Of a DNA stretch of 64,000 nt, positions 5,528-15,776 are shown one piece after another. The DNA comes from an uncultured Acidobacteriota bacterium (GTDB lineage Bacteria; Acidobacteriota; Vicinamibacteria; Vicinamibacterales; 2-12-FULL-66-21), in the NCBI GenBank assembly GCA_963755695.1, contig CAVWLB010000008.1, forward strand, positions 798,109 through 862,108. The letters run 5' to 3'. The number at the start of each line of letters is the position of its first letter. The first letter of the stretch is position 1. Below the pieces are notes generated by a model that searched no databases, was not told where the DNA came from, and was given only the letters and a program-made list of their open reading frames with translations. A program made the translations under genes and the position numbers.

Positions 5528-5806
5528 CAGCGAGCGCCACCTTCGACCAGATCCTAGGCCGAACCACAAGAGAAAATGAGGACCAGCACCACGCGGCAAG
5601 TGCACCCAAATTGCTCCTGTCCCCATACACTGCACAACGCGAAGATCGATTTCACTGAGGCGGCTGAAGAACAACGGATCGAAGTTTGGAGGCGGCGCCC
5701 TATTCCCACGCTCCCAGTGACGCGCCACGCCACGTGACCCGACTGAAATGCGCTCGCCAATGAATTTTGCGGAGCACAGGACGTCTTCGGTACCGGCTCC
5801 CGAGGT

Positions 5807-9048: not shown

Positions 9049-9531
9049 GTGGCATACCGAGGCGACACGACGGATCCCCTCGAGAACATCATCAACAGGC
9101 AGCGATCCATCAGGAGGGTCTTCCTCGTGGTAGTCGCCATGTGGGTCGTCCCGCACATGCGTCAACTCAACTGGTCTGTGTTCAATGGCGTCTTTCCTGA
9201 CCGAGCAGCGGACGCAGCTCCCACGTTCAACACCGTTCCGATTGGCCCTGGAGTTCCGAGTACGGCCGCAGGTCCGCCTACAAAAATGAGCGCGAGCGCG
9301 CTCGAGCAGTTGCTTCGAAGCGCACCGGCGTCAAAGCGGCCGCCACAAGACGTGCGCTGCCTGCCAATCCAGGGCGGTTGGGATTACGTCTGCCTCTATC
9401 AAACTGACGTCCCCCAACCGCGCACGCAGTTGAAGATTGGCGTTCGCGTGAGCGCGTACGGGATCGTGCAGGCGTCGGAACCCCAGCCGCTGGACACTCC
9501 GCTCGTGTCTCCCCAACCCAAGGCCCGGTAA
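9049..9531 (+). CDS. Hypothetical protein with one predicted TM helix
   Basis: 160-aa ORF in a lower-GC patch next to the integrase remnant. Only weak coding signal. Confidence 0.25.
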   Translation: MAYRGDTTDPLENIINRQRSIRRVFLVVVAMWVVPHMRQLNWSVFNGVFPDRAADAAPTFNTVPIGPGVPSTAAGPPTKMSASALEQLLRSAPASKRPPQDVRCLPIQGGWDYVCLYQTDVPQPRTQLKIGVRVSAYGIVQASEPQPLDTPLVSPQPKAR

Positions 9532-9631
9532 CGAGCGTTGCAGCCGACGGCCGGTGCGCCTGTGCAGCGCTGTTGCTGAAACGCGGACGTTACGTGCTTG
9601 AACAGCAGAAAGCGATCCCAGTCTGTGAAGC

Positions 9632-11092
9632 TCACCGGCCCGCGAACGCCGCGAGCGCGGTCTCGGCGACCGGCACGCAGTCGAGCGTGTCGCGCCGTGG
9701 ATGGGCCTCCCAGAAGTCGCGGCGCAGAAAGACGGCCCGGTCCATACGATCGTACGGCGCGTTGCGGACGAAGAGGTACTCGCGTTGAAACCGCGGCGAC
9801 GACACCATCTCGAGAATCATCTTGCGGCGGCGCGCACCGATGATCTCGTCCGGGCCGGCGCCGCGGAGCAGCGCCAGGCCCGACAGGTACCCCTCGACGA
9901 TGTCGGGGCGCTGCTCGATGACCCAGCGCATGTCGGTCTTCGAGTCCTGGGGGCCGTCGGGATCGAACGTGCCGTGCCTCGCGATGTAGGGCGTGTTCAA
10001 TCCAAGCGCGTCGATGTGGACAGCATCCACGATAAACGGGAGCGCGCCTCCGTAGCTGCTGGAGATCGTCGTCGTGGGGCTCGCCACCGACGCGAGCCAC
10101 GCATAATAGGCCGCGTTGCCCGGTCGCGGACCGCCGCCTCCCTGCGCCAGCAACACGCCAAGGTCCGCCGCGAGCGCCAGCCCGACGGCGGCACTGACCT
10201 GTCTCCACCGACGGTCGCGTACGACGCGGGTCAGACCTGTCATCGCCACGAGCACCCAGGCCGGGGCCACGTGGACGAATTGGCGCCAGACGGGGAATGC
10301 GGTCGGCGGATCTCCCCCCGCGCTCGCCATGTAGACGATGTACGCGACGAAGAGCGCCAGGCACGTCAATCCACGCCGATCGCCGGCGCGCCTCACGGCG
10401 ACGGCCCCAATCGCCAGAAAGGCGACCACCACCGCGTGCGCGAGCATCCAGCCGCCGACGTACACCAGGCCGAGCCGCACGTGTCCGATGCCGCCGCCCG
10501 CGACCTTCGCGTAGTAGGTGTTGGGCGCGAGCGCGCCATATGCCACCCAACGGTGAACCGCGATCGCCATGAGCGTCAGCCCGCCGGCGATCGCCGTCGC
10601 GGCGACCCATCGCCAGCGCTCACGCCGCCAGGCGAGCGCCAGCACGTCGACACCCGCGACGAGCGCGCCCTCGGGCCGCATCGCGACGAGGAGCGGCGCG
10701 ACGATCGGCTGCCACTGCGCTGGACCGACCAGCGCAAGCGTGACGAGGCTGGTGAACGCCACGGCCTCCATGCCCGACGCCGCATAGAACGTGAATGGCA
10801 AGTACAGCGCGAGGAAGACGCCAGTCAGCACGGCAGGACGATCGTCGCGGCGCCGGAAGAGCACGGCAATCACGGTCAGCGCCGCCGCAGTCCCGAACAC
10901 CTTGGACGCGATCCGGACATCTACGCCGAGCCACGCGGCGCCGCCGAGCAGCAACGTCCACAGCAGCGATGAGTAGCCTTCGACGTGCTCGCCGGTACGA
11001 TTCCATGCGCCGAGTCCATACCCTTCCGCCAGATGGCGCGCATATCTAAACGTGATATAGGCATCATCGAGCGTCAGGCGCGACAAGAGCAC
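9632..11092 (-). CDS. GT-C-type integral-membrane glycosyltransferase (PMT/ArnT-like)
   Basis: 486 aa. N-terminal DDAYITFRYARHLAEGYG motif, 10 or more TM helices, and a soluble C-terminal domain. Confidence 0.55.
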   Translation of the reverse strand: MLLSRLTLDDAYITFRYARHLAEGYGLGAWNRTGEHVEGYSSLLWTLLLGGAAWLGVDVRIASKVFGTAAALTVIAVLFRRRDDRPAVLTGVFLALYLPFTFYAASGMEAVAFTSLVTLALVGPAQWQPIVAPLLVAMRPEGALVAGVDVLALAWRRERWRWVAATAIAGGLTLMAIAVHRWVAYGALAPNTYYAKVAGGGIGHVRLGLVYVGGWMLAHAVVVAFLAIGAVAVRRAGDRRGLTCLALFVAYIVYMASAGGDPPTAFPVWRQFVHVAPAWVLVAMTGLTRVVRDRRWRQVSAAVGLALAADLGVLLAQGGGGPRPGNAAYYAWLASVASPTTTISSSYGGALPFIVDAVHIDALGLNTPYIARHGTFDPDGPQDSKTDMRWVIEQRPDIVEGYLSGLALLRGAGPDEIIGARRRKMILEMVSSPRFQREYLFVRNAPYDRMDRAVFLRRDFWEAHPRRDTLDCVPVAETALAAFAGR

Positions 11093-12060: not shown

Positions 12061-12255
12061 GGCCTCATCGGCACGGTTGTGAGCTGGTGGTCATCACAAT
12101 TTATTGCGAGTCTGCTCTACGACATCGAACCGCGCGACCCGGTCACACTGGTGAGTGCGGCGGTCACGCTGACGGCGGTCGGTGCGATCGCGGGTTGGCT
12201 CCCTGCCTACCGTGCGTCACGGATCGATCCGTCACAAGTACTGCGAGACATCTGA
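12061..12255 (+). pseudogene. FtsX/MacB-type permease C-terminal fragment
   Basis: LLYDIEPRDPVTLVSAAVTLTAVGAIAGWLPAYRASRIDPSQVLRDI* is the canonical FtsX C-terminus. It abuts the opposite-strand permease fragment. Confidence 0.5.
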
Positions 12256-12428
12256 GCAGGGCGACGCGCCTCGAGGATCGATCGGCTGAGGCACTCCGAG
12301 CCGCGGCAGCCGCTGCCAATCGACTCTCACAGTGAGGCACCAGCCTATTCGTCCGCTTAAGTCGCCTTGTGGCGACCGATGTAGCCATCGCCGTTCAGTA
12401 AACATATCGGCGTTAGGAGGACCTATTG

Positions 12429-12506
12429 GTGACCCAGATTCTCAGCAGTTGGAACCAGATGGTGAGCTGGCTAAGCCAACTCCATAGACTCCGACGAGCC
12501 GCATAA
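12429..12506 (+). other. sORF-A: 25-codon small ORF inside the left copy of a ~115-nt repeat
   Basis: AGGAGG 8 nt upstream of a GTG start. The ORF encodes VTQILSSWNQMVSWLSQLHRLRRAA* and has a paralogue, sORF-B. Confidence 0.35.
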
Positions 12507-12543
12507 TCAAGCGGCGCAGGAGCTTACGAATCACTTCCAGCTG
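12429..12543 (+). repeat. Direct repeat copy A (~85% identical to copy B)
   Basis: Aligns to 14008-14120. Contains an internal GAGCTGGCT/AGCCAACTC stem. A conserved ~37-nt tail ends in CACTTCCAGCTG. Confidence 0.7.
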
Positions 12544-12553
12544 GCTCGAGTAT

Positions 12554-13861
12554 CTAGGTTGCGCCGCGGGCTTTCAGGAAACCCGCGATGTCCGTAAGCG
12601 CGTGCTTCGTCGCCCACATTACGGGCGTCTCGCCGTGCGTGTCCTTCGGTGACGGATCGGCGCCGAACTCCAACAGAATCGCCGCACACTCCGTCCGATG
12701 GTCCATCGTCCGCCCGCGACTGTCCTTGTGGCACAGCTCGTGGAGCAGCGTCACTCCATCAACCGTTGGGTAATTCGGATCGAGGCCGCCGCGCGTCAGC
12801 AACTCGCGCAGCATATCGGGCCGCTCGAGCAGATAGGAGTGGCACCCGCCCGCCTGCGGATGGACTTTGAAACCGGCGTCGAGTAATCGGCGCATCAGCT
12901 TGCGCCGGCCGCAGGTCACGACGGCCGTGAACACACCCCCGCACCCGGCGAGTGCCGTCTCGGGTCGTTCGGTCACGATCCGCATGACCTCGTCGTCCTC
13001 GCCCTTCCACACCAGGTCGTACGGATCGAGGAAACCGCCATGCGCCTCGAGCAGTCTTCGGATCTCCGGTGTCTTCGCGGCATAGACGGCGTTGCCGCTG
13101 GCGTTGACGAAACCGTTGGGATCGGCGTGATGTTTCAGCAGCAGTTCGACCATCTCCCGGTCGCCACGCCCCGCCGCGGCGTGCAAGGCGGCGCCGCGCT
13201 CGGACGAATCGGCGTCGGGCCACGTCGGGTCCGCGCCGCGTTCCAGCAGCAGGCGGACGATGTCGAGACGGCCGAATTCGGCGGCGGCAGAGAGCGGGCG
13301 ACGATCGTCGGGGCGCTGCTCGGAGATGCGTGAGGGGGCGGCGTCGAGCATCGACCGCACCGCCGCCAGATCGTTCAACGCGGAAGCGACCGTCAGATCG
13401 TACGTCGCACCGCGGCCGATGAGCAGTCGAGCCAGAGGCACGTTGCCGTTGCCGGGCCACACGCGGCGGCCCGGCCGCCAGCGCCTCCACAGCAGCCACG
13501 TCAGGCCGTTGGCGTAGCAGCGCCATCTTGACAGAGGCGCCTGCCGCGGGCCGCCCCAGATCGCCAGGTCAATGGGCTGTTTATCCTGCGGCGCGTAACC
13601 CTCGAACGACCCGACCCCGGCGCCGTGAATCGCGTGAATGTCGGCGCCACGATCGAGCAGCAGCGTCACCACGTCTGCCGATCCGCCGATGACCGCGCGG
13701 TGCAGAGGATGACCGCCAGCGCGGTTGATGTCGTCGACGAGCGATGGCTGCTGATCGAGGAAGGCGCGTACGCGCGCCAGCTCGCCGGCTTCGGCGGCGT
13801 CATGGATCGGATGATCCTCGGGCACGGTCGACGGCACGAGCCGTCGCGACGGATCAATCAT
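12554..13861 (-). CDS. Ankyrin-repeat protein
   Basis: 435 aa with multiple ANK repeats (G-HPLHRAV..G..DVV.LLLDRGAD consensus recurs). Confidence 0.85.
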   Translation of the reverse strand: MIDPSRRLVPSTVPEDHPIHDAAEAGELARVRAFLDQQPSLVDDINRAGGHPLHRAVIGGSADVVTLLLDRGADIHAIHGAGVGSFEGYAPQDKQPIDLAIWGGPRQAPLSRWRCYANGLTWLLWRRWRPGRRVWPGNGNVPLARLLIGRGATYDLTVASALNDLAAVRSMLDAAPSRISEQRPDDRRPLSAAAEFGRLDIVRLLLERGADPTWPDADSSERGAALHAAAGRGDREMVELLLKHHADPNGFVNASGNAVYAAKTPEIRRLLEAHGGFLDPYDLVWKGEDDEVMRIVTERPETALAGCGGVFTAVVTCGRRKLMRRLLDAGFKVHPQAGGCHSYLLERPDMLRELLTRGGLDPNYPTVDGVTLLHELCHKDSRGRTMDHRTECAAILLEFGADPSPKDTHGETPVMWATKHALTDIAGFLKARGAT

Positions 13862-14007
13862 GTGCGCGGAATCATATTAGCTGCCGCCAGCGTGAGGGGC
13901 ACCGAGCCCGCGTCAAAGCGATCGGTCGCAACGATCCGAAAACCTCGGGCAACCGGACGCGGTTTCAGCGGATCTGCCGAACGAGCGAAGTGGTTGTCAG
14001 GAAAGAA

Positions 14008-14085
14008 GTGACTCGGATTTTCACCAGTTGGAACCAGATCGCGAGTTGGCTAAGCCAGCTCCAGGGGCTCCAAGGAGTCGCATAG
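14008..14085 (+). other. sORF-B: paralogous 25-codon small ORF in repeat copy B
   Basis: GTG start. Encodes VTRIFTSWNQIASWLSQLQGLQGVA*. Frame and stop position are conserved with sORF-A. Confidence 0.3.
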
Positions 14086-14120
14086 TAAGCGGGCAGGAGT
14101 TTACGAGTCACTTCCAGCTG
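14008..14120 (+). repeat. Direct repeat copy B
   Basis: See copy A. Confidence 0.7.
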
Positions 14121-14272
14121 CGTGGGGCTAGCTCCTTGGTGCGGGCGAGCGGCTTGCTGAACGCTGCGGCGTTTAGCGCGAGTTAATGCGTGTTAGGCTC
14201 CCTCCGTTAGGTGCGGCGATGTCAAAGGTGCGAAGACACACTCCGCGATCACACCATGGCGGCGAGGACAAC

Positions 14273-14881
14273 ATGACGACGAGTCGAATTAGTGCCGTGG
14301 CAATCGCGCTGAGTATTGCGTTCGGATTTGTTGGCGGCGCCGGCTCGACGCAGCGTTCAGCGAAAGACCAGAACCTGTCCGGCACGATCGCTTCTTCCAA
14401 ACGGATGGCGGACGGTAAAGAGTGGACGACTGCCAATCTGAACGTCAACACGTCGTCATCCTATTGTTACGACGATGCGGAACCGAACTGCCGTCGATAT
14501 GGCCGTTTGTATACGTGGGAATCGGCGCAGCGAGGATGTCAGTCGCTAGGAGATGGATGGCGGTTGCCGACCGACGACGAATGGCGTCAGATGGCGAAGC
14601 ACTATGGTGGACTTGGGAACGATTCGCCTGACAAGGGTAAAGCGGCGTACACGGCACTCCTGAGCGGAGGGACGTCAGGCTTCAATGCCGTGCTGGGTGG
14701 CAATCGCTCCATTGATGGACAGTACGACCGGCTGGAGGCACACGGAATTTACTGGACGGTATCCGAAAACGATCCGATCACCGCACCGTTCTATAACTTC
14801 GGCAAAGGCAGTCAAGCGCTCTATCGTCAGCCCCAGGGCCAGAAGCAGATGGCAGTTTCCGTGCGTTGCGTCAGGGAGTGA
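14273..14881 (+). CDS. FISUMP (Fibrobacter succinogenes major paralogous) domain protein, secreted
   Basis: GRLYTWESAQ...CQSLGDGWRLPTDDEWRQM is the TIGR02145 signature. GAGGA sits 7 nt before the ATG at 14273. An N-terminal hydrophobic signal is present. Confidence 0.75.
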   Translation: MTTSRISAVAIALSIAFGFVGGAGSTQRSAKDQNLSGTIASSKRMADGKEWTTANLNVNTSSSYCYDDAEPNCRRYGRLYTWESAQRGCQSLGDGWRLPTDDEWRQMAKHYGGLGNDSPDKGKAAYTALLSGGTSGFNAVLGGNRSIDGQYDRLEAHGIYWTVSENDPITAPFYNFGKGSQALYRQPQGQKQMAVSVRCVRE

Positions 14882-15372
14882 CCGCTCAAAATTCGGGCCC
14901 GCGAGATCCAATCGTAGTGGAACGCATTCGACGGTGAGGCCGCAATTACTCCTGCCTAGTCGCCCAGTGGTTTTCCAAAATGCCGGAATGTCGCTCGGAA
15001 GCGACTAAGACGTTCACCGTTACCGTCATCGCGCCGAAGCTTAACCACATCGCTCCAGTCGAGAACAGCGGTTCCGCATTCGCTGTCCGCCGGCCCTGTC
15101 GATGCGTGAGTTCGTGCGCCATCACGAGCTCGGCCAAGACCGCGGGCCCGCCCATCGAGATCGGTGCCAATAGTGGCGCCCAGAAAGTCCAAGGGAACTA
15201 CTGCACAATTTGCTGCACGATCCCGGAGCCGGGCGCCTGACTCGCGAGATCGCTAGCAATTTCTTCGACTCAACGTGATGACGTGAGCGCGAATCGCAAT
15301 GGGAAATTTGAGAATTCTGGCCGAATTCGCTCAGGTCTCGGACCGAAAAACCGTCGCCCCTCGATCGAGAAG

Positions 15373-15401
15373 TTTACGCAAGTGCCGATTTTACGTATAC
15401 T
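15373..15401 (+). promoter_or_regulatory. Sigma70-like promoter for tRNA-Ser
   Basis: TTTACG, 17-nt spacer, TATACT. The tRNA begins 10 nt downstream. Confidence 0.5.
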
Positions 15402-15411
15402 TGGCGTCTGC

Positions 15412-15506
15412 GGTGAGGTGGCCGAGAGGCTGAAGGCGGCGGTTTGCTAAACCGTTGTAGGGTCTTTAAAACCCTACCCAGGGTTCGAATCCCTGCCTCA
15501 CCGCCA
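15412..15506 (+). tRNA. tRNA-Ser (anticodon GCT)
   Basis: Folded by hand. Acceptor GGTGAGG/CCTCACC, 3-bp D-stem, anticodon loop UUGCUAA, long variable arm, T-loop TTCGAAT, discriminator G, encoded CCA. Confidence 0.9.
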
Positions 15507-15776
15507 TAACAAGTCCAATAATAACAATAACTTACTATTCTAAAAGCTCGGACAAATCCCTGCGTCATCGCCCGTTAAGTCGCTTCGACGGACATCCCAC
15601 CTCGCATTGACACGCAGGCTCGCAATCAGCCTCTTTCGCTCGACGATCGACATTGCCACCCACCGGTCCTGGGCGGCCCGCACATGATCCTTTGACTCAT
15701 CAATATTAGATGATACTGTCGCCCGCTGTTGAGCTGTCTCACAGGAGGACTGTGGAGCTGCCTCGCGGAGGACAAA

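What the first reader, a model, noticed from the sequence alone, without database searches (positions are those of the whole stretch)
12429..14120. Paired ~115-nt direct repeats, each carrying a conserved 25-codon sORF with RBS, bracketing a minus-strand ankyrin gene
The two copies are ~85% identical at nucleotide level. Despite substitutions they keep the same start position (GTG), reading frame, length and stop position. The encoded peptides are VTQILSSWNQMVSWLSQLHRLRRAA and VTRIFTSWNQIASWLSQLQGLQGVA, with a conserved SWNQ..SWLSQL core. Copy A has a textbook AGGAGG spaced 8 nt from the start. Inside the ORF lies a 9-bp stem (GAGCTGGCT/AGCCARCTC), and a conserved 37-nt tail follows the stop. 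The repeats sit on the strand opposite the ankyrin gene they flank, one just past its stop and one ~150 nt before its start. Possible readings include the following: a small-peptide gene family; leader peptides of a cis-regulatory RNA; antisense or terminal elements of a small mobile cassette carrying the ankyrin gene; or a MITE with a spurious ORF.
Basis: seen in the sequence. Interest (0 to 1): 0.75.

Follow-up and report, generated by a model that had tools for sequence, protein, structure and literature searches.

The report
Detached recombinase gene ends marking cassettes
The two repeats are not small genes or regulatory RNAs. Each is the split-off last 25 codons, plus the adjoining attachment-site arm, of a large serine recombinase that inserts mobile elements into a tRNA-Lys gene, left here as orphan left ends of two recombinase-less gene cassettes.

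Summary
In detail: two direct repeats (12427-12545 and 14006-14192, + strand) are 83.5% identical over the shared 115 nt, and each carries a 25-codon frame.

They are the left ends of integrative elements driven by a large serine recombinase (LSR) in Vicinamibacterales (Acidobacteriota). The LSR's attachment site lies inside the 3' end of its own gene. The crossover core, TGGTGAGCC, is the reverse complement of the tRNA-Lys(CTT) 3' end and supplies the apparent GTG start.

When the element is integrated, the LSR reads into antisense tRNA (...VSREGIEPSTRRLRVCCSAN). Its last 25 codons then sit at the far end of the element as an apparent sORF. Many LSR homologues end in this peptide, including the window's subtype (P0121).

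L045 and L046 show the integrated and tandem states directly. Diverged copies show coding constraint. The window's subtype does not: the start is lost in 22% of copies and the stop in 35%.

The window has no LSR gene and no tRNA-Lys gene. It holds an orphan array: unit A plus the ankyrin gene, unit B plus a Fib_succ_major gene, then a degenerate third core.

This is a new variant of a known kind, of moderate interest.

The parts
12427..12545 (+). Unit A: left end (attL-type, P' arm) of an LSR-type cassette. The core TGGTGACCC sits at 12427-12435, followed by the detached recombinase tail codons and the first 37 nt of the conserved tail. It lacks 105 nt that are present in the L003 relative.
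   Evidence: Profile match E 4e-34. 93% identical to L003:11540-11424, which continues into the full tail and then the same ankyrin block. The core matches the reverse complement of the tRNA-Lys 3' end. The upstream flank is unlike any recombinase 3' end, so this is probably the outer boundary of the array.
12429..12506 (+). 'sORF' A: 25 codons plus TAG, VTQILSSWNQMVSWLSQLHRLRRAA. It is homologous to the C-terminal tail of large serine recombinases.
   Evidence: Peptide HMM E 2e-15. The same peptide type ends LSR fragments P0121 and P0123.
12546..13889 (-). Ankyrin block: the 435-aa ankyrin-repeat gene (12554-13861) plus 28 nt 5' and 8 nt 3'. It is the cargo of cassette A and is 99.8-100% identical in at least 6 different genomic contexts.
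   Evidence: The exact protein is on at least 20 contigs (62 index blocks), and the six places shown have five different gene neighbourhoods (L005 and L006 share one); with the window that is at least six contexts. The homology borders are 12546 and 13889. Pfam Ank_2 E 6e-34.
13975..14005 (+). Short relic resembling the 3' end (P arm) of a recombinase gene: CCGAACGAGCGAAGTG, then ...AGGAAAGAA. It abuts the core of unit B, giving an attP-like junction between two tandem cassettes.
   Evidence: Compared by eye with the P arms of L045 and L046 (CCGACGAGA...GATGAAAGAGTG|GTGAGCC) and with the equivalent junction at L003:9734 (GGCTGAGGAAAGAA|GTGAGCC). This is inference, not statistically tested.
14006..14192 (+). 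Unit B: complete ~185-nt left end, made of a degenerate core (AAGTGACTC), the tail codons, and a ~105-nt conserved non-coding tail.
   Evidence: Profile match E 6e-60 over model positions 2-188. 41 copies of this subtype occur in Vicinamibacterales/Acidobacteriota MAGs and soil metagenomes.
14008..14085 (+). 'sORF' B: 25 codons plus TAG, VTRIFTSWNQIASWLSQLQGLQGVA.
   Evidence: Peptide HMM E 5e-16.
14167..14173 (+). CGGCGTT, a recurrent junction at the 3' end of the conserved tail where different cargo begins.
   Evidence: Seven or eight independent contexts break at 14172-14175. The L014 insert is flanked by CGGCGTT on both sides. The ankyrin right module in L001, L002 and L004 starts there. 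The mechanism is unknown.
14273..14881 (+). Fib_succ_major-domain gene with a signal-peptide-like start MTTSRISAVAIALS. The mechanical ORF starts at 14186. It is the cargo of cassette B.
   Evidence: Pfam PF09603 E 5.5e-22. It follows the unit at a fixed distance in 10 of the 41 copies and after an insert in an eleventh (L014), always with different upstream flanks.
14934..14978 (+). Degenerate third core-like piece (GGTGAGGCCGCAATTACTCC...GTCGCCCAGTG). It marks the right limit of the block unit B + Fib_succ.
   Evidence: The homology of the block ends at 14905-14978 in ten loci. Four contexts (window, L011, L034, L004) end at the same base, about 14978. In L012, L014, L019 and L037 a recognisable next sORF-type left end follows instead.

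Best explanation
Each repeat is the left end of an integrative element or cassette that is moved by a large serine recombinase (LSR) found in Vicinamibacterales.

**How the element works**
- The recombinase's attachment site (attP) lies inside the last part of its own gene.
- The crossover core, (AG)TGGTGAGCC, is identical to the reverse complement of the 3' end of tRNA-Lys(CTT).
- In the intact or tandem (attP-type) configuration, the recombinase ORF runs through the core. It ends 25 codons later in a conserved tail (consensus VSRIFASWNQLDGWLRQVDGLRRAA).
- After integration into tRNA-Lys, the recombinase gene sits at the right end of the element. It then reads into antisense tRNA instead (...VSREGIEPSTRRLRVCCSAN).
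- The core plus the 25 tail codons and downstream element DNA stay behind at the left end (attL). There they look like a GTG-started sORF. The GTG is simply the Val codon inside the core.
- Repeated integrations build tandem arrays. Decay or loss of the recombinase leaves recombinase-less cassettes, each still headed by such a left end.

**What the window holds**
- The window contains such an orphan array: unit A + ankyrin gene, a relic of a recombinase 3' end, unit B + Fib_succ_major gene, and a degenerate third core.
- It has neither a recombinase gene nor a tRNA-Lys gene.

**Shown versus inferred**
- Shown: homology of the peptide to LSR tails, the core identity with tRNA-Lys, and the integrated and tandem architectures in related loci.
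- Shown: the absence of an LSR gene in the window, and the relaxed ORF conservation in this subtype.
- Inferred: the exact crossover position, how the array reached a non-tRNA location, and whether the window's sites can still be recombined in trans.
For: 1. **Fusion to a recombinase in L010.** In L010 the peptide is the C-terminus of a 196-aa ORF. That ORF has 1329 homologues, which carry the PF00239, PF07508 and PF13408 domains.
2. **Two kinds of tail.** Among the 120 best homologues, at least 26 end in the peptide. At least 48 switch at the same residue (...ADEKM/V|V) into GIEPSTRRLRVCCSAN.
3. **The second tail is antisense tRNA-Lys.** It maps antisense onto tRNA-Lys (L012:1500-1438). The tRNA 3' end CGGCTCACCA is the reverse complement of the unit's 5' edge TGGTGAGCCG.
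4. **Integrated state seen directly.** In L045 the LSR gene (9300-10876, +) overlaps tRNA-Lys (10812-10887, -), with the junction GAAAGAG|TGGTGAGCCCGGAAGGAATCGAACC.
5. **Tandem state seen directly.** In L046 the outer LSR reads across the core at 5683 into the next element and acquires the tail VSLNFTSWNRIGPWLRQLEELRRTA. The inner LSR is 513 aa and has all three Pfam domains. It reads into tRNA-Lys at 15518-15593.
6. **The window's subtype is a recombinase tail.** It occurs on P0121 (...EEKV|VTQIFTSWNQMSSWLSQLQGLQGAA) and on P0123.
7. **Coding signature in the 16 diverged copies.**
   - Codon-position entropy is 0.71, 0.78 and 1.07.
   - 26% of codon differences are synonymous, against 10-15% in the shifted frames.
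   - 14 of 16 stop at codon 26, using TGA, TAG or TAA.
8. **Decay in the window's subtype.**
   - None of its 41 copies is fused to an LSR.
   - The first codon is a non-start in 8 of 37 copies and the stop is lost in 13 of 37.
   - There is no codon periodicity: 0.40, 0.51 and 0.48.
9. **Arrays in the predicted orientation.**
   - L012 has three left ends and then an antisense tRNA-Lys.
   - L014 has three left ends and then an LSR gene on the same strand.
   - L019 has the unit, then Fib_succ, then the element's companion genes.
10. **The window is orphan.** It has no LSR or companion genes, no tRNA-Lys fragment, and only these two copies.
Against: - No excised circular form or empty attB from the same strain was observed. 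The crossover is therefore inferred from sequence comparison only.
- The window's array is not next to a tRNA-Lys gene, and copy B's core is degenerate (AAGTGACTC). How it got there is unexplained.
- Tandem arrays imply attP x attL or attP x attR type events, which are not canonical for large serine recombinases.
- Some conserved features are not explained by a ~50-bp recombinase site:
  - the ~105-nt tail beyond the stop;
  - the recurrent CGGCGTT junction;
  - the perfect 8-bp palindrome specific to this subtype.
- An SD-like core is about 3-fold enriched upstream of copies (30% against 10%). Occasional stand-alone translation is therefore not excluded.
Confidence: 0.85

Rival explanations
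1. The repeats are an independent small-protein gene family. Each would encode a 25-aa peptide translated from its own GTG with its own ribosome-binding site, and the peptide would act on its own, possibly in trans on the truncated recombinase.
For: - The peptide family shows real coding constraint, a conserved length and a conserved stop position.
- Copy A has AGGAGG 8 nt upstream.
- Copy B and L003:9734 have AGGAAAGAA directly upstream.
- An SD-like core is found upstream of 30% of copies, against a 10% background.
Against: - The constraint is explained by the peptide being the recombinase C-terminus.
- The GTG is fixed by the att core and the tRNA sequence, not by start-codon function.
- In the window's subtype, 22% of copies lack a start and 35% lack the stop, and variation shows no codon periodicity.
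- 70% of copies have no SD-like core, and the AGGAGG of copy A lies in unique flanking DNA.
- There are no Pfam or NCBIfam hits.
Confidence: 0.07
2. The ~185-nt unit is a structured non-coding RNA or a cis-regulatory leader for the downstream gene, and the ORF is incidental.
For: - The whole unit, including ~105 nt after the stop, is 82-96% conserved across species.
- Its predicted folding energy is lower than that of column shuffles, z -3.2.
- Unit B lies directly upstream of Fib_succ_major and on the same strand.
Against: - No Rfam family matches, even at E up to 10.
- The covariation term is unfavourable, with 3 of 54 and 4 of 45 pairs showing compensatory change.
- The opposite strand folds at least as well (z -4.6) with 0 of 38 compensatory pairs.
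- Downstream genes differ or point the other way. Ankyrin is convergent with unit A.
- No promoter or terminator consensus was found.
- Diverged family members share only the coding part.
Confidence: 0.03
3. The units are recombination sites of a different cassette system (integron-like attC sites or a MITE-like element) that shuffles single genes such as ankyrin, Fib_succ_major and the AAA_33 kinase.
For: - Single-gene cassettes occur in varying combinations behind the units.
- The junction CGGCGTT recurs, and it is duplicated on both sides of the L014 insert.
- GTTRRRY-like boxes (GTTAGGC, GTTAGGT) lie just downstream of unit B (seen in the sequence).
Against: - No integron integrase and no tyrosine recombinase appear among the genes called in the fetched loci. 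The only recombinase linked to the units is the LSR.
- By eye, the unit lacks the R''/L''-L'/R' architecture and lacks terminal inverted repeats.
- Its left border is the tRNA-Lys-derived core.
- This reading does not explain why the unit encodes the recombinase tail.
Confidence: 0.05

Closest known systems
Dehalococcoides ssrA-specific genomic islands (DsiB large serine recombinase; McMurdie et al. 2011, PMC3146451)
   Same: - A ~540-aa serine-family integrase inserts islands at the 3' end of a tRNA-like gene (tmRNA).
- The result is tandem arrays bounded by short direct repeats of that 3' end.
- Many array members lack the integration module and are interpreted as cis-mobilisable or fixed relics.
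   Different: - The target there is ssrA, not tRNA-Lys.
- The passages read describe the att repeat as a 20-bp copy of the ssrA 3' end and do not mention it lying inside the recombinase ORF, so no recombinase tail would be split off.
- A second small recombinase (DsiA) is present.
Mx8 IntP/IntX (Myxococcus phage; attP inside the integrase gene)
   Same: - attP lies within the 3' part of the integrase coding sequence.
- Integration therefore creates a recombinant gene with a new 3' end and altered integrase properties.
- Islander allows for integrases that extend across attP.
   Different: Mx8 Int is a tyrosine recombinase. Here the enzyme is a large serine recombinase, and the new tail is antisense tRNA sequence.
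SSV-type 'suicidal' integrases of archaea
   Same: - The recombination site is carried inside the integrase's own ORF.
- Integration partitions the gene into two pieces at the two borders of the element, and the target is a tRNA gene.
   Different: - These are tyrosine recombinases and are said to be exclusive to archaea.
- The gene is split so that the integrase is disrupted.
- Here only the last ~23-25 residues are exchanged, and the catalytic, recombinase and zinc-ribbon domains stay intact.
phiRSM filamentous phage integrase (Ralstonia)
   Same: A serine-family recombinase uses as attP/attB core a 13-nt 3' end of a tRNA gene in reverse orientation.
   Different: It is a small, resolvase-like serine recombinase. 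Its attP lies between ORFs, not inside the recombinase gene.
Integration-dependent immunity of mycobacteriophage BPs and relatives
   Same: - attP lies inside a gene.
- Integration removes a C-terminal segment (33 aa) that ends in an ssrA-like degradation tag, which switches the protein's stability.
- The recombinase tail here ends in Ala in 52 of 59 cases and has Ala at the penultimate position in 44 of 59.
   Different: - The split gene there is the repressor, and the integrase is a tyrosine recombinase.
- A degron function of the tail here is only a hypothesis.

Membership tests
Left end (attL / P' arm) of a large-serine-recombinase integrative element | The sequence is homologous to the part of the element that follows the crossover in the recombinase-proximal attP, here the last 25 codons of the LSR ORF. 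| tested here: met
   Peptide HMM E 2e-15 (A) and 5e-16 (B). LSR homologues end in this peptide, including the window's subtype (P0121, P0123).
Left end (attL / P' arm) of a large-serine-recombinase integrative element | A short core at the boundary is identical to the chromosomal target (the tRNA-Lys 3' end). | tested here: met
   Unit consensus TGGTGAGCCG equals the reverse complement of CGGCTCACCA. Copy A has TGGTGACCC (8 of 9). Copy B has AAGTGACTC, which is degenerate.
Left end (attL / P' arm) of a large-serine-recombinase integrative element | A cognate recombinase gene with Resolvase + Recombinase + Zn_ribbon domains lies at the other end of the element, on the same strand, reading into the target. 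| tested here: not met
   This is met in related loci: L045, L046 and L014. In the window there is no LSR, no companion gene and no tRNA-Lys. The window copies are therefore orphans or relics, not ends of an intact element.
Left end (attL / P' arm) of a large-serine-recombinase integrative element | The site is actually recombined by the enzyme (integration or excision). | not testable with these tools
   This needs in vitro or in vivo recombination assays, or read-level evidence of circles and empty sites.
Stand-alone small-protein gene | Start codon, ribosome-binding site and stop are conserved among copies. | tested here: not met
   In the window's subtype the first codon is a non-start in 8 of 37 copies and the stop is lost or shifted in 13 of 37. 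An SD-like core is present in only 15 of 50 copies, and it lies outside the conserved unit.
Stand-alone small-protein gene | Substitution pattern shows coding constraint (third-position excess, synonymous excess). | tested here: inconclusive
   Constraint is present in the diverged copies: entropy 0.71/0.78/1.07 and 26% synonymous against 10-15%. It is absent in the window's subtype: 0.40/0.51/0.48. Where present, it is explained by membership in the recombinase ORF.
Structured RNA (Rfam family or novel riboregulator) | A match to a curated covariance model, or base pairs supported by compensatory changes on one strand. | tested here: not met
   No Rfam hit at E up to 10. 3 of 54 and 4 of 45 pairs show double changes, and the covariation term is +1.31. 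The antisense strand folds as well, with 0 of 38.
tmRNA (considered because the peptide ends in ...AA* and T-arm-like motifs occur nearby) | A tRNA-like domain plus a tag reading frame, detected by ARAGORN or Rfam. | tested here: not met
   ARAGORN and Rfam find no tmRNA in the window or the loci.
Integron attC site / MITE | For attC: R''-L''...L'-R' imperfect palindrome with RYYYAAC/GTTRRRY boxes and an IntI nearby. For a MITE: terminal inverted repeats plus target-site duplication. | tested here: inconclusive
   No attC model was available. By eye there is no R''/R' pair at the unit ends and there are no terminal inverted repeats. No integron integrase appears among the genes called in the fetched loci. 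The CGGCGTT junction remains unexplained.
SSV-type 'suicidal' integrase system | A tyrosine recombinase whose gene is disrupted by its own att site. | tested here: not met
   The enzyme here is a serine recombinase (PF00239, E 9e-36), and only the C-terminal tail is exchanged. It works in a similar way but is not a member.

The most novel reading that the evidence does not exclude
The 25-residue tail is a built-in sensor of integration state for a bacterial large serine recombinase.

- Only the excised or tandem (attP-type) configuration encodes the full protein with its conserved amphipathic tail.
- That tail ends in an ssrA-like ...(A/V)A carboxy-terminus.
- Integration into tRNA-Lys swaps the tail for an unselected antisense-tRNA tail.
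- The swap would change the enzyme's stability or directionality without, or in addition to, a separate directionality factor.

If true, this would be the first serine-integrase counterpart of Mx8 IntP/IntX, of the SSV 'att-in-gene' integrases and of integration-dependent immunity. It would also be a tRNA-targeting large serine recombinase family that is widespread in soil Acidobacteriota.
Probability: 0.3. Interest if true: 0.7.

Novelty: new variant of a known kind. Interest (0 to 1): 0.45.

Why it matters
**For annotation.** Short, apparently conserved ORFs with good-looking start sites in Acidobacteriota intergenic regions can be split-off ends of recombinase genes. They mark the borders of integrated or decayed mobile cassettes. 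This re-reads the ankyrin and Fib_succ_major genes here as cargo.

**For mobile-element biology.** The related loci reveal a family of large serine recombinases with four notable features:
- They target a tRNA gene. The Islander authors stated that this was not known for serine integrases. The precedents found here are a small serine recombinase at a tRNA gene (phiRSM) and a large one at tmRNA (Dehalococcoides).
- They carry their att site inside their own coding sequence. A review states that this is known only from archaeal tyrosine integrases, although bacterial Mx8 is a partial exception.
- They exchange a conserved C-terminal tail on integration.
- They build arrays of recombinase-less single-gene cassettes.

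**For applications.** Large serine recombinases are sought-after genome-engineering tools. A natural tail-swap control of directionality or stability would be of practical interest if it were confirmed.

Tried and rejected
1. **tmRNA or tRNA-like gene.** I considered this because of the ...AA* ending and GGTTCGAT motifs upstream. ARAGORN and Rfam find nothing. The T-arm-like motifs are tRNA-Lys fragments or coincidences.
2. **Ankyrin block as an insertion that cut unit A, with the rest of A's tail at 13890+.** The profile finds no tail there. L003 shows the ancestral order unit-tail-ankyrin, and the window simply lacks 105 nt of it.
3. **Ankyrin gene plus both repeats as one mobile unit.** The block shared by six other contexts is only 12546-13889 and excludes the repeats.
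4. **Integron attC, MITE, or DGR template/variable repeats.** No matching architecture and no associated enzyme were seen in the sequences and loci examined.
5. **Riboswitch or leader for Fib_succ_major.** Downstream genes vary and there is no covariation.
6. **Pfam and NCBIfam scans.**
   - The peptides give no NCBIfam hit, and the window's 113-aa extended ORF gives no Pfam hit.
   - The Pfam call that included the bare peptides failed on an unrelated coordinate error and was not repeated.
   - The element's companion genes (289, 385, 263 and 60 aa) have no Pfam hit.
7. **Direct protein search with the 25-aa peptide.** I replaced it with a 54-aa chimera of an LSR C-terminus plus the window-type peptide.
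8. **Clean attL for the single element in L045.** Only a core-like GGTGCAGCC was found, opening a 25-codon ORF of unrelated sequence. This is not conclusive.
9. **Promoter and terminator scan of 12200-15100.** Nothing above chance.
Full report
**1. Checking the observation**

12429-12543 and 14008-14120 are direct copies on the + strand, with 96 of 115 aligned positions identical (83.5%). Each opens with GTG, runs 25 codons and ends in TAG, and the peptides are exactly as quoted.

- AGGAGG lies 8 nt before the GTG of copy A.
- The GAGCTGGC/GCCARCTC stem is present.
- The minus-strand ankyrin gene (12554-13861; Ank_2 E 6e-34) lies between the repeats.
- The conserved blocks occur nowhere else in the 64 kb, against about 0.15 chance matches expected. 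Later profile and peptide searches confirmed that there are only these two copies.
- No Rfam family matches, even at E up to 10.

**2. The ankyrin gene is mobile, but not together with the repeats**

The exact 435-aa ankyrin protein is encoded on at least 20 contigs (62 index blocks). The six places shown have five different gene neighbourhoods, because L005 and L006 share one. Homology between the window and all six stops sharply at 12546 and 13889. That is a 1344-bp block made of the ORF plus 28 and 8 nt, and it excludes both repeats.

The other loci share further short modules with each other. L003 carries a full copy of the repeat just beyond the 3' end of its ankyrin gene.

**3. The unit is longer and widespread**

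A scan of one genome per species found 8 copies in Acidobacteriota/Vicinamibacterales MAGs. A metagenome scan found 30 more. Alignment of these copies shows several things.

- The conserved unit is about 185 nt: the 115-nt core plus a tail of about 70 nt. Its left border starts at TGGTGA.
- Window copy B is complete, reaching about 14192. Copy A stops at 12545.
- Compared with L003, which has the order unit, tail, 39 nt, ankyrin, the window simply lacks 105 nt.
- About a quarter of copies (11 of 41) carry the same Fib_succ_major gene behind the unit. The distance is fixed in ten of them, and L014 has an insert in between. The upstream flanks all differ.

**4. A layer of diverged copies points to coding**

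A nucleotide profile of the unit picked up weaker matches that cover only the first ~80 nt. When translated, nearly all keep a 25-codon frame with the pattern VSRIFASWNQLDGWLRQVDGLRRAA. The conserved Leu uses four different codons, and the stop falls at the same position as TGA, TAG or TAA. Their downstream sequences are unrelated. There are 3-4 such copies per 8-21 kb in some loci.

Measured on 16 diverged copies:
- codon-position entropy is 0.71, 0.78 and 1.07;
- 26% of codon differences are synonymous, against 10-15% in the shifted frames.

**5. The peptide is the C-terminal tail of a large serine recombinase**

In L010 the peptide is fused to a 196-aa ORF. That ORF has 1329 homologues, which are large serine recombinases carrying the PF00239, PF07508 and PF13408 domains.

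The homologues' C-termini fall into two classes that diverge at one residue (...YLAPSESADEKM/V|V...).
- At least 26 of 120 continue with the peptide.
- At least 48 of 120 continue with S-R-x-GIEPSTRRLRVCCSAN.

The second tail is the antisense translation of tRNA-Lys(CTT). The tRNA's 3' end, CGGCTCACCA, is the exact reverse complement of the unit's left edge, TGGTGAGCCG. The 'GTG start' is therefore a Val codon inside the attachment-site core.

The window's own peptide subtype (SWNQM.SWLSQL) also occurs as a recombinase tail, in P0121 and P0123.

**6. Direct view of the architecture**

- *L045 (a 1.3-Mb contig).* The recombinase gene overlaps an antisense tRNA-Lys, with the junction GAAAGAG|TGGTGAGCCCGGAAGGAATCGAACC.
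- *L046.* This locus holds two elements in tandem.
  - The inner recombinase is 513 aa and has all three domains. It reads into tRNA-Lys.
  - The outer one reads across the same core into the left end of the inner element. It thereby acquires the tail VSLNFTSWNRIGPWLRQLEELRRTA.
- *Companion genes.* Elements carry four conserved companion genes with no Pfam match.
- *Arrays in the predicted orientation.*
  - L012 has three left ends and then an antisense tRNA-Lys.
  - L014 has three left ends and then a recombinase gene on the same strand.
  - L019 has the window-type unit, then Fib_succ, then companion genes.

**7. What the window contains**

The window has no recombinase gene, no companion gene and no tRNA-Lys fragment. 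I read 12427 to about 14978 as an orphan array with these parts, in order:

- Unit A. Its core is intact and its upstream flank is unlike any recombinase 3' end, so it is probably the outer border.
- The ankyrin gene, as cargo.
- A ~30-nt relic resembling a recombinase 3' end (CCGAACGAGCGAAGTG...AGGAAAGAA). It abuts unit B in the same way as the tandem junction of L046 and as L003:9734. This comparison was made by eye.
- Unit B, followed by the Fib_succ_major gene.
- A degenerate third core-like piece at 14934-14978. The block's homology ends there in four independent contexts. Other loci show a recognisable next left end at that position.

**8. Are the window's copies functional small genes or RNAs?**

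For the window's subtype:
- none of the 41 copies is fused to a recombinase;
- the first codon is a non-start (GCG, CCG, ACG or GGG) in 8 of 37 copies;
- the stop is lost or shifted in 13 of 37 copies;
- variation shows no codon periodicity (0.40, 0.51, 0.48).

An SD-like core occurs upstream of 15 of 50 copies, against a 10% background, and it lies outside the conserved unit.

The RNA-structure tests are negative. The covariation term is +1.31. Only 3 of 54 and 4 of 45 pairs show compensatory change. The antisense strand folds at least as well (z -4.6 against -3.2) with 0 of 38 compensatory pairs. That pattern fits DNA palindromes better than a conserved RNA fold. No promoter or terminator consensus stands out.

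**9. How it most likely works**

*Shown:*
- the homology of the peptide to recombinase tails;
- the core identity with tRNA-Lys;
- the integrated and tandem configurations;
- the orphan state of the window's copies.

*Inferred:*
- attP lies in the recombinase's own 3' end;
- integration into the tRNA-Lys 3' end leaves the tRNA intact, because the core restores it;
- integration swaps the recombinase's last ~23-25 residues for antisense-tRNA sequence;
- integration strands the tail codons at the far border;
- tandem accretion and loss of recombinases then produce arrays of recombinase-less cassettes, which a recombinase elsewhere in the genome might still move.

*Speculative:* the tail may have a regulatory role. 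It has a strictly conserved length (59 of 70 tails are 25 residues). It has near-invariant Trp and Leu positions. It ends in Ala in 52 of 59 cases, with Ala at the penultimate position in 44 of 59. This resembles ssrA-like tags such as the one removed by integration in mycobacteriophage BPs.

**10. Comparison with what is known**

Each ingredient has a precedent.
- Dehalococcoides ssrA islands: a large serine recombinase, a tRNA-like target, tandem arrays, and members without an integrase.
- phiRSM: a serine recombinase that uses a tRNA 3' end in reverse orientation.
- Mx8 and SSV: attP inside the integrase gene.
- BPs: integration removes a C-terminal tag.

In the literature I could search, I found no description of a large serine recombinase with attP inside its own ORF and a tRNA target. 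One database paper states that serine integrases are not known to target tRNA genes. One review states that att-in-gene integrases are exclusive to archaea. I therefore rate the system a new variant of a known kind. The window's two repeats themselves are orphan relics of it.

**11. Open points**

- The 1344-bp ankyrin block is 99.8-100% identical across contexts, while the adjoining modules are about 92-93% identical.
- The junction CGGCGTT recurs at the end of the tail.
- A subtype-specific perfect palindrome encodes SWLSQL on both strands.
- It is unknown how an array came to lie away from tRNA-Lys.

Noticed in passing
window 12546-13889 (and L001-L006): The 1344-bp ankyrin block is 99.8-100% identical in at least 6 different genomic contexts, while the flanking unit and tail modules are only ~92-93% identical. 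The block has sharp ends (TCGAGTATCTAG... / ...TTAGCTGCCGCCA) with no inverted repeats or target duplication. It may move on its own or be homogenised by gene conversion.
   Followed up: partly
window 14167-14173; L014:570-576 and 1362-1368; L001/L002/L004 ~11379: CGGCGTT is a recurrent junction at the end of the unit's tail. Seven or eight independent contexts diverge right after it. An AAA_33/zeta-toxin-like kinase insert in L014 has it on both sides. The ankyrin-associated 63-nt module starts with it and contains a second copy. A second cluster of junctions sits right at the sORF stop (14081-14086).
   Followed up: partly
window 15377-15452; L003:20488-20413 and L003:3262-3188: L003 holds two copies of the 35 nt upstream of the window's tRNA-Ser(GCT) gene plus the gene's 5' half. 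Both break right after the anticodon loop. One is followed by a strong terminator hairpin (GGGCCTGAAATTGATGATTTCAGGCCCGTTTTTT). ARAGORN calls no tRNA there. These may be att remnants of another element family or tRNA-half genes.
   Followed up: no
window 12462-12484 and 14041-14063: The 8-bp palindrome GAGCTGGC-TAA-GCCAGCTC is specific to this subtype. Because of it the antisense strand also encodes ...WSWLSQL.... It lies ~40 nt from the crossover, outside a normal recombinase half-site, and diverged family members lack it.
   Followed up: partly
L012:2373-2265, L019, L037, L003:15660-15616: A conserved ~50-nt motif (GCCCGCGAGAAYCACCCGGATCAACGAC.GAACGCGAGTGAGGGA) lies between the end of the Fib_succ cassette and the next left end, which is TTG-started. 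It is duplicated in L012. Its function is unknown.
   Followed up: no
upstream 15-25 nt of orphan units in L019, L042, L027, L007, L039, L003, L040, L044, L030: The flanks immediately upstream of orphan units fall into small families (...CGTAAGTCGTTTGGTATGAGTG|, ...CGAGC..TGCGAGACGTG|, ...GCGGAAAGTG|). They probably represent relics of the 3' ends of different recombinase lineages. If so, most 'orphans' sit at former element-element junctions.
   Followed up: partly
L008:7560-7590 and L014:330-360: A tRNA-Lys 3'-end-like fragment (AGGTTCGATTCCTATCCGCGGTGGCC) lies in forward orientation ~60 nt upstream of the unit. It is inverted relative to the core.
   Followed up: no
L045:5766-5843: At the expected left border of the single element in L045 there is no recognisable tail. 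Instead a core-like GGTGCAGCC opens an ORF of exactly 25 codons with unrelated sequence (VQPPRTSVRRLLKAPPTNGVDRRSR*).
   Followed up: no
L046:10833-13981, L045:6187-9276, L019:5582-3769: The elements carry four conserved companion genes (about 289, 385, 263 and 60 aa). None matches any Pfam family.
   Followed up: partly
L009:587-760: One diverged tail copy is followed by an operator-like palindrome and a gene beginning MKTAKVFWSGRSQAVR, which from memory resembles AbrB/VapB-type antitoxins (not tested here). Several loci around the units have Pfam hits to toxin-antitoxin families (PIN, BrnT, DUF4926/DUF6883, HepT).
   Followed up: no
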